Translations under genes and position numbers: made by a program
The notes under the pieces: model-generated
Databases searched by the model: none
What the model saw: the letters and a program-made list of their open reading frames with translations, nothing else
What the model was told of the DNA's origin: nothing
In this document: piece by piece, positions 265 through 63,800 of the stretch
Layout of the letters: each line of letters begins with the position of its first letter
Position numbering within the stretch: the stretch's first letter is position 1
DNA from: Amoebophrya sp. A120
Lineage: Eukaryota > Protista > Dinoflagellata
Direction: 5' to 3'
Assembly: GCA_905178155.1 (NCBI GenBank)
Contig: CAJINV010000007.1
Location: 1,767,341-1,831,340 of the forward strand
Length of the DNA stretch: 64,000 bases

Positions 265-2712
265 GTACGACCGTCCCACACCGATTCAGAAGCATTCTAT
301 CCCGATCGTCCGCTCCGGTCGCGACGGGATGTGCTGTGCCCAGACGGGTTCCGGTAAGACAGCAGCCTTCTTGATCCCGGCGATTCAGTCGCTTCTGGAC
401 AAAGGTCCGCCGGGCCTCCCGGACACATACAATGCGAAGAGCCTGGTTGCCAGGTAAAAACTTCTTTGGAACATAATTGCACACAAACACAACTACCCCT
501 AGCAGTTAGAAATAGAAATAGTTATAGTTTGATATTGGCACATGCGCTTCTTCATCGTACATGATCAAAGTGCTTTAGTTACTGCTTACCAGTGCTTTTT
601 GTAGTTTCAGTTTGAGATGATTCCGATAATTATTTTCTTCTCTATATCAGAGTCGCCATGCCGATCGTCCTCGTTCTCGCCCCGACGCGAGAGTTGGTTT
701 CGCAGATTTACGATGAAGCACGAAAATTCTGTTACAACACGGGAATTCGGCCGGCTGTGGTATACGGTGGCGCACCGCTCATGGACCAGAAGCGTGACGT
801 GATGCGAGGGTAGAAGGCTACAATATGCTTTTATACTTGTTCATGTTTCGCTTTTGCTTCGAATCAATTCGATCTAAAGTTGAAGAAATGTAGTTGGCCA
901 GGAGTAAAGTCTTGACATCAACAACAACCACAACCAGTGCTGGTTCTACTGGTACTACAGGTGAAAAAATGCACGACGACCCATGGCTGCCTCTGTTCAT
1001 CTTCTTGTTCTTGATTTACTATTTATTCATCTTCAATGAAAATAAATCGCAAACAACTCAGTGTGGACATTTTGGTTGCTGCCCCCGGTCGTCTTACGCA
1101 CATGACGGAGGCCGGTTGGATCAACCTTGGGTACACCCGCTACTTGGTCCTGGATGAGGCCGACCGCATGTTGGATATGGGGTTCGAACCCCAGGTCCGG
1201 CAGATCGTGGAGCACACGAACATATCACAAGAAAAAAGTGTTACAGTGACACATCTATTGCAACTTCAGCAACACAAATTTTCTCTGTGTGGCAGAGAAA
1301 ACTTGCAATGCAGAGATCCTAAGGGAAAACACATACGAAATGAAGCTCGGATGCATTTCTTGCATGACAAAGGTTGTCTGTCTTGCGGCTCCTGCAACGT
1401 AATGTGTAAGTGTAACACCTTTTTCTTGCGATAGAACATGGGCGAGTTCTACTACGGCAACCCGGAGTTCGACCGGCAGACCATGATGTTTTCCGCCACG
1501 TTTCAGGACGAGATCCAGATCCTCGCCCGCGACTTTCTCCACGATTACATCTTCTTGACCGTCGGCCGGGTCGGTTCGACCAACGAGTTCATCGAGCAGA
1601 AGGTGGTCTACGCCGACGAAATGGAGAAAACCGGGCGCCTGAAGCGGTGTCTGAAGGACGCGGAAATCGGGTGCGGGGGCGAGGGGCTGTGTCTGGTTTT
1701 TGTGGAGACGAAAAAGGGCGCGGACGTGCTGGAAAAGGACTTGTGGAAAAACTCCTTCGCCGTTACCGCGATCCACGGCAACCGAAACCAACAGGAACGA
1801 GAGGAGGCCCTGCAGGCGTTCCGGACCGGACAGAACCCGATCCTGGTCGCAACCGACGTGGCCGCCCGAGGGTTGGACATCCCAAACGTCTCTTTGGTAT
1901 TTTTGCGAACATAGAACGTCGTGATTTTTTCTGCTGGTTGTTACGTGCGAACAAAGTTGGCATGACAGGACCAGCTCGATTTTTGTCAAGACGGCCTGAT
2001 GCTTTGATGTTGATCATGATTTGTATTCTTGCGCATCTTTATATGAGATTTTACATTTGTCATGCATTTTATTTTAATTTTCCCATATCAGGTTATCAAC
2101 TACGATATGCCGAAGAACATCGACGATTACGTGCACCGAATCGGTCGTACCGGCCGCGCCGGTCGCCGCGGAAAGGCAATCAGCTTCATCAACGACCGCC
2201 AGTGCACTAGGGACTTACTGAGAAAGTTGAGCGACTTGCTTGTGGAGGCCAAGCAGGACTGCCCGGACTGGTACAATGCGATAAATAAACTTCACCTTGC
2301 TGGTAGTTCTAGTATGCATTGCAAATTATGTGTCTGGAACATCATTATCATTAGCATTATGTTTTCGTGATGCGGGAGGACTTGAAGCAGGACAACAAGA
2401 TCTGTGGTGCATGAACACCAGGAGTGGCCAAGAAGTCGCAAGAAGCTGTGGAGAACTTGTTGATGTTATTTTCTTGAATTCCCAAAATATACAATTGTCA
2501 GGTTCAAGGAGATCGCCCGTGTGAATAACCGCGATGCGAAGCCTTTGGACAAGTACGCTACTGGAAAACAAACCCGCGATATCCGTACGCTCGACAGCAA
2601 CGATGGTGGCGGCTTCGCGAAACGAGAGCCGGTTCGCCGAGGCGTGGTTACCAACGACAAGAAAAAGGTCGCTGAGAGCTGGGGCGCCAGCGGTGTGGCT
2701 GATGCGTGGTAA
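265..2712 (+). CDS. DDX3: DEAD-box RNA helicase, DDX3/Ded1 subfamily (5' end outside window); exons 265-453, 651-809, 1062-1222, 1439-1896, 2092-2270, 2502-2712
   Basis: Spliced translation gives the Q motif [64 protein letters not shown] (Ded1-typical), [10 protein letters not shown] and [12 protein letters not shown]. Four GT-AG introns plus one TIR-bounded non-canonical intron. Confidence 0.93.
1223..1433. mobile_element. Introner (211 bp) in DDX3; TSD GAACA (1218-1222 / 1434-1438)
   Basis: Left end TATCACAAGAAAAAAGTGTTACA vs reverse complement of right end TATCGCAAGAAAAAGGTGTTACA. Removal of element plus one TSD joins EHT-N-MGEF in frame; retention hits a TAG at 1432. Confidence 0.92.
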
Positions 2713-60818: not shown

Positions 60819-63800
60819 ATGTACGGGTATGAGGGAAGTCAAGGGTACTGCTACGACGAGGAGCGCGACGACGGCAACTACTACGGCGCCCCACATCAAC
60901 GACGCGCGGCCCGAGGACGCCACGGCAGCTACTATGATGACGAGGCGCTGCAAAACTACGAGTACGACGACAAGAACTACTACGCCACCCCAAAACCCTC
61001 CGCCCGACGCAGATATCATGGTGAGGGCGAGGCTGCTGCACCCAAGAAGGTGAAGAAGAACAAGAACAATGCGGTGCTTGACGCAGACTCCATCGAGGTC
61101 GAGATGACCACCCCGGACACGAACAGCCGGCGAACCACGCAGGAACCCCCGGGAGCTGGTCCGTTGGTCGCCGCGGAGGGTGAGAAGTTGTTTCCGAAAT
61201 CGATGCAAGAAGCCGAAAGTAAGAACGCGATCCAGCCCAAAATCACACGCGGCAAAGGCAAAGCAAGCTGCTGGTGCTGGGGGGAAGAAGGGGAAGGGCA
61301 AGGCGATCAAGGGTCCCGTCGTTCCGAGCGAGACAGGCGAGTCTGAGTCCGCGTTCGATGATGACATTATGCTCATGAAGGTGTTGTTGAAAATCCGCTC
61401 CTACTACCCCTCTACTTTTTGTAATAATATGTGTTTCGCACAATCTTCACAAGCTCAAACATCATAAAGAAAAAGAATATACGCCTAGATAGAAATCACG
61501 ACCGGTCAGCACATGTTCAGTCGCTGTCTGGTTGTCGAGCCCGACTCGAATTTAGGCAACTACATCGTGATAATTTTACACGCACCATCCAACCGAGGAT
61601 GAAAGGGATCGTCGGTGGGGATTCTACTTTTTCCATTGCATAGACACTGGCCGCGAAGATGATGACTCTGAATTCGTGGGCCCCCCGCCGCCAGCACAGA
61701 AGCCGGGGAAAGGGAAAGGCAAAAAAGGAAAGGGCAAAGGGGGCCGAGGCAAGAATAAGAAACCAAGTCAGCCCGGCTTCCTGGACAAGGTGTACGAGGT
61801 GTCCAACATGGGCTTAATGCTTGGCGTTTATTTCTCCAGCTTCGCGTTTTGCGCGCTGCTCTTCGGTTTGATCGTCGGACTCAGCCTTTCCGATCCGGAC
61901 CCCGAGAAGGGACCCTGCACTCCTTCGGCTAGTAGTACCACTACCAGCGCGGCGGCAAGTCCAAGCCCCTCGCCGGGTACGTCGAGCACCTCCCCGGCCC
62001 CGGCGCCAGTATCACCGACGCCGGCTGCTGCTACATCGGGGTCCGTGTCCTCAACAAGTCCGACTCCGACGCCGACGCCAGCTGCATCTTCACCGACGCC
62101 GACGCCAGCTCCTGCGCCCACCCCTGCTGCGGCCCCGACGCCGGCCGTCGGGGTGGCCGGCTCCGGAGCGATTCTCTTCACCAACGAAGCGGGAGATTCC
62201 AATATGACAAAGAAAAATGCCCCCTCCCCATATCGAAAAGTAAAACGAATTTTGTGATGCTGCATTTGAGTACACAAATCGGCCTGTATTGCTAGAAGGC
62301 CAAGAGACGCAGTTGCGGCCTGAGTTGCAGGCAATTTGTCATGCTGTTTCCCACTTCCAGCTGCCTCCTGTCATGCTGAAGATGCAAGGCCTTACCACGC
62401 CAGCCAGCACTACAGTCCGCATCTTTTGCCTCATAGAATGACAAAGCTGATTTGTGACCACAAATCTGCATCACAGATTTCCGTTTTGATATGGGCAGGG
62501 GGGATTTTTCTTGTTCATATCCAACACGCGGCGGCAGCAATTCTTCAAGGACTACACCACGCTGGAAACCGTGATATGCATTGCAAAAGCATCGTACTAG
62601 TATAAATCGCATGACAAATTTTATCAGGAAGAAAGTTGGAATTTGTAATGCAGATTTGGGTAGGAAACCAGATTTGTTATGCATACCTGCAATTCATACG
62701 AGTGCGATACTTTTGCAGTGGATACGTGACTTTCGACGGCAAATCGATCCAGGCGCGCGCCGTCCACAGTTCCGGAGGTGTGGCCGATTGGGTGGTCAGC
62801 GAGGGCCAGGGCTATGGGGTGTGGATGGGCGCCGCCACCGTTGCGGGCTTTCGGGTGGCCAACAACTATATGGATTGTAAAAATGTCTGAGTCTCCTGGA
62901 AGTTTCTGAGACTTGTCATGCATGTTTTGCATGACCCAGGATGTCTGTAATGCACGACCGCGCGTCACAGGTCTTGAGAGGGCTTCCTGATGCCTACTCC
63001 GCATGACAAACGCCCTCCCCGCGTAGCACAAACTAGACTCCTCTTGCTGGTCATGCGACACAGATTTTTCTAGAGTCCAAAGTTAGCATCACAAGTTCCA
63101 ATCTTCCACCAGACCCAGACATTTTTACTCTTGATAAACTACCGCAAAGCCACGGGGAACGCCGCTTACAACACGGCGGTGCAGGAAACCTACGAAGCCT
63201 ACCTGGGGTGGCGGCAAATGTGCTACCTCTTATGCATTGCAAAAGAAGTACTTATCGTACTCCTAGTATTTTTGCAATACAAATTAGCTCAGCATGACAT
63301 CGAATGGAATTTCTCATGCTAATTTAGCTTGAAAAAGAAATTTGTCTTGCATGACTGCGACGAGTACGAGTGCGATAGTCTTGCACATGATACTTCTCCC
63401 GGGACAACGACATGATCGACCGGTTCTACTGCGGGGCCAACTGCCCCCACGCGGGCGAGCCCCGGACGTCGGCCCCCAACTGTTATCCCTGTCTGCCCCA
63501 CTGGAAAACTACGGACAATCTGCAGAGCGTGGTGGGCAAGGGTTCTGCCAGTGACGGGGATCTGGATGGCATCGTGGGCATGATTCTTCTCGTCATTTCG
63601 ACGGCCCCGGACCGCGACGAGTACACGGGGACAGGCTCCGATCCGCAGAACACCTGGAATTGGCAGGAGCTCGCGCTGCTCACCTACCAGTCCTGCAAGT
63701 CCAACTTGATGCACAATTTCGTGACGGGCACCGGGGTCAACTCCGACTTTCTCATGCTGAAACTGGGCACCAACTGGGGCGGGTTCGACCCGGAGTGCAA

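What the first reader, a model, noticed from the sequence alone, without database searches (positions are those of the whole stretch)
1218..63397. Thirteen exon-inserted elements obey one rule: 5-bp TSD + TAY...RTA TIRs, with frame restored on removal
Seen: elements starting at 1223, 6389, 18310, 29512, 32026, 33460, 38292, 38489, 61368, 62203, 62575, 62869 and 63231 all begin TAT/TAC, end ATA/GTA and are flanked by a 5-bp duplication (10 perfect, 3 with one mismatch). Deleting the element plus one TSD copy restores the frame in 13/13, including within conserved DEAD-box and GH8 domains. The TSD sequences are unrelated, and exact removal has no GT-AG register in any of them (one has GC-AG). 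Established: repeat-bounded non-canonical introns are reported for Amoebophrya (Farhat et al. 2021), so the phenomenon itself is known. Inference: one DNA-transposon lineage is paired with a splicing route that reads the TIR or its hairpin, not the terminal dinucleotides, so insertion at almost any exonic site is tolerated.
Basis: partly seen in the sequence, partly recalled or inferred. Interest (0 to 1): 0.88.

Follow-up and report, generated by a model that had tools for sequence, protein, structure and literature searches.

The report
Transposon introns with one cut register
Thirteen short transposon inserts interrupt coding exons of what is likely the marine parasite Amoebophrya, and the five that could be checked are missing exactly from a transcript-like contig although they lack GT-AG ends; this intron class is already published, but the cut likely sits at one fixed place, one base before the element and four bases after it, whatever the target sequence or orientation.

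Summary
All 13 elements have TAY..RTA ends and a 5-bp TSD (10 perfect, 3 with one mismatch). In one transcript-like run, 5 of 5 tested are removed exactly with one TSD copy; a DNA-like run shows no joined form. They are the published Amoebophrya A120 introner elements, and a public protein already matches the spliced GH8-like gene. What I add comes from about 150 further copies in a second assembly. The TSD is strictly 5 bp, orientation is random (52:52), and target sequences show no G or AG preference. Insertion phase is biased. Four mismatched TSDs place the cut at N|TAY...RTA-NNNN|, if the register is fixed. There the element's TAY falls on intron +2 to +4, matching the host's GTA(Y) donors. 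A perfect hairpin seems unnecessary, and spliceosome use is inferred, not shown. No transposase was found. An earlier scan note (e1-7695377, unchecked) reports a similar intron in another dinoflagellate. Verdict: known class, with a new and cheap test of its open splicing mechanism.

The parts
1223..1433 (+). Element, 211 bp, perfect 5-bp TSD, in DDX3-like helicase exon; inferred intron 1222-1437
   Evidence: Pfam DEAD and Helicase_C on the flanks
6389..6702 (+). Element, 314 bp, perfect TSD; GC-AG possible at k=3, GT-GC at k=1
18310..19503 (+). Element, 1194 bp, perfect TSD, 61-nt TIR; its one ORF of 120 aa or more has no Pfam hit
29512..29735 (+). Element, 224 bp, perfect TSD
32026..32277 (+). 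Element, 252 bp, family B, perfect TSD, DBP2-like gene
33460..36743 (+). Element, 3284 bp, the only TAC..GTA one, 43-nt TIR, GC-rich interior without Pfam hits; removal restores the His-Ile seen in yeast Dbp2
38292..38441 (+). Element, 150 bp, family A, perfect TSD, DBP2-like gene
38489..38753 (+). Element, 265 bp, family B, TSD mismatch at position 4 (synonymous); the most decisive junction, no RNA junction obtained
61368..61642 (+). Element, 275 bp, weak TIR, TSD mismatch at position 5; RNA keeps the right copy's base, so k is at least 1
   Evidence: joint 61362 to 61643, 4 letters fit both sides
62203..62519 (+). Element, 317 bp, perfect TSD, removed in RNA
   Evidence: skip of 322
62575..62724 (+). 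Element, 150 bp, family A, removed in RNA; its ends join many different flanks in the DNA-like run
   Evidence: skip of 155; 75 contigs with loose ends at 62575 and 25 at 62724
62869..63136 (+). Element, 268 bp, family B, removed in RNA
   Evidence: skip of 273
63231..63392 (+). Element, 162 bp, family A, TSD mismatch at position 2; RNA keeps the left copy's base, so k is at most 3
   Evidence: joint 63227 to 63395, 3 letters fit both sides
216..2712 (+). DDX3-like DEAD-box gene: 467 aa after removing 1 element and 4 GT-AG introns
31990..38928 (+). DBP2/DDX5-like DEAD-box gene: 4 elements and 5 GT-AG introns
60635..64000 (+). GH8-like glycoside hydrolase transcript with 5 elements; runs off the window end

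Best explanation
These are non-autonomous TAY..RTA DNA transposons with a 5-bp target duplication that sit in exons and are cut out of the transcript exactly, likely by the host's own relaxed spliceosome at one fixed register. Define k as the number of left-TSD bases inside the intron; the inferred register is k=1. The intron then starts at the last base of the left TSD, so the element's TAY fills positions +2 to +4, as in the host's GTA(Y) donors. It ends four bases past the element's RTA. Exon 1 keeps TSD bases 1-4 and exon 2 starts with base 5, so the original mRNA is rebuilt for any target. Both ends carry the same TIR, so either orientation works. Shown: structure, TSD length, removal in 5 of 5 junctions, independence from orientation and target sequence. 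Inferred: the fixed register, donor mimicry, spliceosome use, a 3' site measured from the TIR end, and mobilisation by an integrase-like (Ginger/IS3EU-type) transposase elsewhere in the genome.
For: Removal: run X3 gives one contig (depth 194, no differing letters) that skips all five elements plus one TSD; run X1 shows none of these five joints. The window's public protein P0003 equals my spliced model over 425 of 425 residues across four junctions. Register: 61368 requires k of 1-5 and 63231 requires k of 0-3. L043 matches its AT5.2 homologue only for k of 0-2, and L041 matches the A120 protein 127 of 127 only for k of 0-1. The intersection is k=1. Donor match: 11 of 11 hand-read canonical introns start GTA and 9 of 11 GTAY. 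Phase: TSD base 1 is codon position 3 in 65 of 138 copies (p=0.003; control 76/89/75) and in 9 of 13 window elements; this means phase 0 at k=1 or k=4. Orientation is 52:52 in family B and 5:8 in family A; G at TSD5 is 38 of 132 against a background of 0.291. Farhat et al. report nearly all spliceosomal proteins but no U1 in A120.
Against: The two RNA brackets are also what a cut in the longest still-matching TSD stretch would give. The upper bound k of at most 1 rests on one locus (L041) and an annotated protein, whose source genome may not carry the mismatch. RNA evidence is assembled contigs of one run whose kind is a guess; raw-read runs X10 and X11 laid 2 and 0 reads, so they are no test. 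No selection for G(+1) or AG is seen, which is odd for a spliceosome. My idea that the TIR also supplies +5 G failed: G at TIR position 4 occurs in 23 5' ends and 44 3' ends of 149. TAT is no more conserved than TIR positions 6, 8, 9 and 11-13, so transposase binding alone could explain it. 10 of 17 TSD mismatches are synonymous, a mild hint that both copies may be constrained. No transposase was found.
Confidence: 0.5

Rival explanations
1. A non-spliceosomal route, like that proposed for euglenid nonconventional introns: the TIR stem brings the ends together and an endonuclease-ligase cuts at fixed offsets from the stem.
For: The terminal stem is strongly predicted in 11 of 13 elements. Orientation and target sequence do not matter. 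U1 snRNA was not detected in A120. Euglenid introns give circular products (PMC11282704).
Against: 61368 and 63231 have near-zero predicted terminal pairing yet are skipped at the same depth as the others. The TAY match to canonical donors and the phase-0 excess at k=1 would be coincidence.
Confidence: 0.2
2. There is no fixed register: the junction falls anywhere the two TSD copies still match, so the published variable splice sites are real.
For: Both RNA junctions lie in the longest identical TSD stretch. Farhat's Fig. 3 legend calls the sites variable relative to the hairpin. Polarella classes splice in several frames. 10 of 17 mismatches are synonymous.
Against: At L041 this rule predicts Glu, but the A120 protein has Gly. 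It does not explain why the phase peak equals phase 0 at k=1.
Confidence: 0.2
3. The elements are excised from DNA in some life stage (IES-like), not from RNA.
For: They have transposon ends and removal is exact; the DNA and RNA runs may come from different stages.
Against: X1 holds elements in place with no joined form. X3 holds a 231-nt exact piece of unique element 61368 at depth 3.9 beside the joined form at 194, while the 13 upstream bins have no depth; this fits pre-mRNA or excised intron. Contigs drop rare variants, so this is not proof.
Confidence: 0.05
4. The joins are reverse-transcriptase template switches across hairpins with direct repeats, and the real transcripts retain the inserts.
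For: Hairpin plus direct repeat is the classic setting for this artefact (recalled), and both informative joints lie in matching bases.
Against: The joined form dominates (194 against 3.9), all five skips lie in one contig, and weak-hairpin elements are skipped too. 10 of 13 inserts shift the frame. The DEAD-box and GH8-like frames are otherwise intact and colinear with homologues.
Confidence: 0.04

Closest known systems
Introner elements (IEs) of Amoebophrya sp. A120 (Farhat et al. 2021, PMC7789003)
   Same: IR motif TAT, seven variable bases, then at least three A; direct repeats at the borders; non-GT-AG ends; repeated families; RNA-supported removal. Locus L041 gives a peptide 127 of 127 identical to an A120 protein.
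   Different: The paper gives repeats of 3-5 nt and variable splice sites. Here the TSD is strictly 5 bp and a single register is inferred. Orientation, target composition and phase were not found treated in the passages read.
A120 introner family 38 (Gozashti et al. 2025, PMC12130899)
   Same: [quoted passage not shown]
   Different: That family is about 810 bp with Copia/Gypsy-like ORF homology. The window's elements show no such ORF, and the paper's automated TSD calls for other A120 families range from 2 to 6 or are missing.
Polarella glacialis ILE class 12 (Roy et al., bioRxiv 10.1101/2020.10.14.339549)
   Same: 5-nt TSD, with one mode in which the donor is the last TSD base plus the element's first base; this is the same geometry as k=1.
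   Different: It needs an NNAGG or NAGGH target and keeps the AG acceptor. Here the target is free.
IS3EU/GingerRoot DNA transposons (PMC10045372)
   Same: TA..TA termini.
   Different: Their TSD is usually 6 bp, against 5 here; there is no transposase to compare.
Euglenid and diplonemid nonconventional introns; Fritillaria borealis non-canonical introns (PMC11282704, PMC12621601)
   Same: Transposon-like ends, non-GT-AG borders, end pairing.
   Different: Euglenid stems use CAG/CTG at +4 to +6 and -8 to -6. Fritillaria favours AG-AC and AG-AT borders and is spliceosomal.

Membership tests
Amoebophrya A120 introner element | Inverted repeat starting TAT, then 7 variable bases, then at least 3 A | tested here: met
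   12 of 13 left and 12 of 13 right ends start TAT; A at positions 11-13 in 12 of 13 at each position
Amoebophrya A120 introner element | Direct repeat of 3-5 nt at the exon/intron borders | tested here: met
   5 bp in 13 of 13; among 240 TIR pairs in loci, perfect at 5 bp in 152, at 3 bp in 4, at 4 bp in 2, at 6 bp in 0
Amoebophrya A120 introner element | Non-GT-AG borders, removed from RNA | tested here: met
   No GT-AG register in 13 of 13; removed in 5 of 5 tested, 8 of 13 untested in RNA
Amoebophrya A120 introner element | Repeated family in the genome | tested here: met
   Two families of 3 copies in the window; 157 loci for one family-B motif, scan truncated
Amoebophrya A120 introner element | Host is A120 or the same species | tested here: inconclusive
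   Loci sharing the families encode an A120-identical peptide; the window's own source is not shown, so identity is inferred
MITE (non-autonomous TIR DNA transposon) | TIRs, constant-length TSD, no coding capacity | tested here: met
   0 Pfam hits in 15 ORFs of the two long elements
MITE (non-autonomous TIR DNA transposon) | Autonomous partner with matching TIRs | tested here: inconclusive
   None in the window or in viral contigs; the whole genome was not available
MITE (non-autonomous TIR DNA transposon) | Empty orthologous sites with one TSD copy in DNA | not testable with these tools
   Protein-level colinearity only: the AT5.2 homologue runs without a gap across both L043 sites
IS3EU/GingerRoot | TA..TA termini | tested here: met
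   Freely found partner ends start TA in 118 of 119
IS3EU/GingerRoot | TSD usually 6 bp | tested here: not met
   0 of 240 pairs perfect at 6 bp; feature
IS3EU/GingerRoot | Transposase phylogeny | not testable with these tools
   No transposase found
Canonical U2 intron | GT...AG ends | tested here: not met
   0 of 13; 11 of 132 loci copies offer an exact GT-AG register, near chance
Canonical U2 intron | Lariat and branch point; snRNP dependence | not testable with these tools
   No raw reads or experiments
Euglenid-type nonconventional intron | Stem joining the intron ends | tested here: inconclusive
   Predicted in 11 of 13, absent in 2 that are spliced
Euglenid-type nonconventional intron | CAG at +4 to +6 paired with CTG at -8 to -6 | tested here: not met
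   End sequences; feature
Euglenid-type nonconventional intron | Excised as full-length circles | not testable with these tools
   No data on excised products

The most novel reading that the evidence does not exclude
The seeming diversity of A120 non-canonical splice sites collapses to one rule, N|UAY...RUA-NNNN|. A U1-less spliceosome has dropped both G(+1) and the AG acceptor, reads the transposon end as the donor core, and measures the acceptor four bases from the other transposon end. Any exonic insertion, in either orientation, then becomes a perfect intron.
Probability: 0.4. Interest if true: 0.72.

Novelty: already known. Interest (0 to 1): 0.4.

Why it matters
How A120 removes tens of thousands of non-GT-AG introns is left open in the papers read, partly because the TSD makes junctions ambiguous to aligners. 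Mismatched TSDs break that ambiguity with existing RNA-seq. A single register would turn dozens of apparent splice-site classes (52 dinucleotide pairs among 149 copies at k=1) into one signal. It would tell experimenters where to look for branch points, and show how a transposon and a splicing machine can make exon insertion nearly free.

Tried and rejected
No whole genome was available, so nothing here is genome-wide. Raw-read RNA runs X10 and X11 did not map (2 and 0 reads): no test. The +5 G idea (the TIR supplies GTATG) looked good in the window (G at TIR position 4 in 9 of 13 5' ends against 4 of 13 3' ends) but reversed in 149 loci copies (23 against 44): rejected. Orientation bias, suggested by six same-way copies in the window, was rejected by 52:52. 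Selection for G or AG in the TSD at any register: 0 of 12 tests reached p below 0.05. A palindromic target preference was not significant (p=0.25) and did not remove the phase effect (p=0.004). An ab initio canonical-intron finder gave 21 mostly unreliable calls and was dropped; I used 11 hand-read introns instead. Homologue search for L155 found nothing. Of 17 mismatched loci copies I sent 3 to homologue search; 2 were informative. The frame call at L001 is probably wrong on rereading, so some calls are noise. The coding classifier passes 132 of 216 non-coding window positions, so '150 of 172 loci copies are exonic' is weak evidence. Table S4 of Farhat (all nine A120 rows are NT-NN) fits k=1, but annotated sites in Gozashti's table look like a mix of k=1 and k=4, so I did not count it. 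No Rfam hit, no PDB hit for the last GH8-like exon, no viral-contig copies. A hAT5 comparison found no passage.
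Full report
1. Observation. All 13 elements lie at the stated starts, begin TAT or TAC, end ATA or GTA, and are flanked by a 5-bp direct repeat: perfect in 10 of 13, one mismatch in 3. 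A de novo scan finds 11 with TIR identity of at least 15/20, against 0-1 in each of 12 Markov controls. At the looser 13/20 it finds 13 against 1-9, and two of those 13 (21310, 39788) are chance-level. The two listed elements it misses, 61368 and 63231, have weak TIRs. Two families of three copies exist in the window (38292/62575/63231 and 32026/38489/62869, about 68-79% alike). No exact GT-AG register exists on the gene strand in 13 of 13, and 10 of 13 removed lengths are not multiples of three. With 11 hand-read GT-AG introns also removed, the six host genes give continuous frames. These include a DDX3-like and a DBP2-like helicase and a GH8-like protein, whose family is shown only through 3 of 5 homologues scanned.

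2. RNA. I laid 4 of the 12 runs listed on 58000-64000. X3, recorded as a guess of RNA, covers only the gene (17 of 30 bins). It gives one 4,925-nt contig at depth 194, with no differing letters in the listed pieces, that skips all five elements plus exactly one TSD (280, 322, 155, 273 and 167 bases). X1, with flat coverage and long contigs, shows none of those five joints and carries 61368 in place. In X1, 75 contigs leave the alignment at 62575 and 25 at 62724, with unrelated flanks, which fixes the element ends and shows many copies. X3 also holds 231 nt of element 61368 at depth 3.9. Raw-read runs X10 and X11 laid 2 and 0 reads and are no test. Eight of 13 elements have no RNA test. Independently, public protein P0003 equals my spliced model over 425 of 425 residues across four junctions, so these introns are already in a public annotation.

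3. A larger sample. None matched the window's exon flanks. Among 240 TIR pairs, which include cross-pairings of neighbours, the flanking repeat is perfect at 5 bp in 152 and has one mismatch in 22. It is perfect at 3, 4, 6, 7, 8 and 9 bp in 4, 2, 0, 0, 1 and 0. Without requiring TAY at the partner end, 122 of 133 anchors had a partner; 111 had a perfect TSD and 8 one mismatch, and 117 of those 119 began TAT. Gene strand was called with a codon model (cross-validated 102 of 109; 91 of 94 above the margin). 150 of 172 elements passed and 149 had full flanks; 22 plus 1 were dropped. The model is poor at telling coding from non-coding (132 of 216 non-coding positions pass), and that noise would dilute the signals below. 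Orientation relative to the gene is 52:52 in family B (7 ambiguous) and 5:8 in family A. TSD composition equals background: G at position 5 in 38 of 132 against 0.291, and AG at positions 3-4 in 12 of 132 against 0.063, p=0.20. There are two departures. TSD base 1 is codon position 3 in 65 of 138 copies (against 38 and 35; p=0.003). This is stable to window shifts, absent in control positions (76/89/75), and kept after a palindromic target model (p=0.004); the window shows 9 of 13. T at TSD position 4 is short: 11 against 23 expected, p=0.004, one of 20 tests. Neither is explained.

4. Where is the cut? With a perfect TSD six registers give the same mRNA; a mismatch breaks the tie. Let k be the number of left-TSD bases inside the intron. 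RNA gives k of 1-5 at 61368 and 0-3 at 63231. At L043 only k of 0-2 gives the Glu found in the Amoebophrya AT5.2 homologue. At L041 only k of 0-1 gives 127 of 127 identity with the A120 protein. If one register holds, it is k=1: N|TAY...RTA-NNNN|. Two further facts fit. The host's canonical donors start GTA in 11 of 11 and GTAY in 9 of 11, so the element's first three bases fall on the conserved +2 to +4. And the phase peak becomes phase 0, the usual favoured phase, at k=1 or k=4, with k=4 excluded by 63231. Against: both RNA joints also lie in the longest matching TSD stretch, the bound k of at most 1 rests on L041 alone and on an annotation, and the discriminating element 38489 has no RNA junction.

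5. Mechanism. Shown: MITE-like anatomy, exact removal, indifference to target and orientation. Inferred: cut-and-paste insertion by a transposase elsewhere, since none of 15 ORFs in the two long elements has a Pfam hit; and removal by a relaxed U2-type spliceosome that uses N-UAY as donor and sets the acceptor four bases past the other TIR. Farhat et al. found nearly all spliceosomal proteins but no U1. The stem may help by bringing the ends together (predicted in 11 of 13), but it is not predicted for 61368 and 63231, which are skipped at full depth. A weak post-hoc lead: the common 3' end TTGATA resembles the branch consensus YTRAY (recalled), which would put a branch A at -7, and 10 of 11 canonical introns have A at -7 or -8 (read). 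Rivals are a stem-guided non-spliceosomal route (0.2), a floating register (0.2), DNA-level excision (0.05) and a reverse-transcription artefact (0.04).

6. What is known. Farhat et al. 2021 (PMC7789003; seen: abstract, sections 11, 12, 16 and 25 whole, passages, supplement passages; figures not visible) describe A120 IEs with IRs starting TAT, seven variable bases and three A, and repeats of 3-5 nt. Their Fig. S19 legend shows 5-bp repeats, and they call splice sites variable relative to the hairpin. Gozashti et al. 2025 (PMC12130899; passages, and 41 of 58 A120 rows of supplement file 8; files 13-14 not searched) list family 38 as 'Ginger, 5-bp TSD, TA/TA termini'. Roy et al. (bioRxiv 10.1101/2020.10.14.339549; passages; journal version not seen) describe Polarella class 12 with the same k=1 geometry but a constrained target. 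Also seen: passages of PMC10045372, PMC11282704, PMC9860276, PMC12005148 and PMC13326754, the abstract and outline of PMC12621601, and a search of PMC6004678 that returned nothing. Six literature searches showed no paper fixing the A120 register or reporting orientation, target or phase statistics. The library lacks most subscription papers, and unseen figures (Farhat Fig. 3, S19-S25) and unread supplement rows may bear on this.

7. Verdict. What survives as new is the refinement: a strict 5-bp TSD, no orientation or target-dinucleotide dependence, a phase bias, and a probable single cut register that lines the TIR up with the host donor. It makes an open mechanistic question testable with existing reads. 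Interest 0.4.

Noticed in passing
window 33445-33458: A 14-nt exon (at k=1) lies between a canonical intron and the 3.3-kb element in the DBP2-like gene; it is needed for the conserved His-Ile.
   Followed up: partly
window 31990-38928 and 60635-64000 versus 43439-59953: Elements cluster: 9 of 13 lie in two genes holding about 11.5% of coding bases, and none in a 16-kb coding gene whose 3' part has no X3 coverage. All 13 are exonic although only about 64% of non-element sequence is coding (p about 0.003). This may reflect insertion into highly transcribed genes.
   Followed up: partly
window 33520-36680, 16500-17700, 25500-27400: Three GC-rich blocks without Pfam hits in the ORFs tested; the first two share a 14-base motif (at 33749 and 16720), though blastn finds no extended similarity. 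One block is carried inside the longest element.
   Followed up: partly
window 43439-58135: A 4,898-aa uninterrupted reading frame with CEP76 peptidase-like, CEP76_C and Neuralized matches.
   Followed up: no
window 2313, 3716, 12566, 33374: Orphan TIR-like starts without a partner end; three lie inside canonical introns and may be decayed elements.
   Followed up: no
window elements versus loci L001-L157: TIR position 4 is asymmetric in opposite directions: G mostly at gene-5' ends in the window (9 against 4 of 13) but at gene-3' ends in loci (44 against 23 of 149; paired 37 against 15, p=0.003). Unexplained.
   Followed up: partly
window 36735-36743: The only TAC..GTA element has CTAAC, a textbook branch motif (recalled), in its 3' TIR at a place where the two TIRs differ.
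   Followed up: no
L041:1-1199: Four elements within 1.2 kb of a photolyase/cryptochrome-domain gene, leaving exons as short as about 25 nt.
   Followed up: partly
window 24530-25194: A small gene with canonical-looking introns that resembles a Tctex-type dynein light chain (recalled, not tested).
   Followed up: no
whole window: All gene models lie on the + strand, in line with the co-oriented gene blocks reported for Amoebophrya.
   Followed up: no
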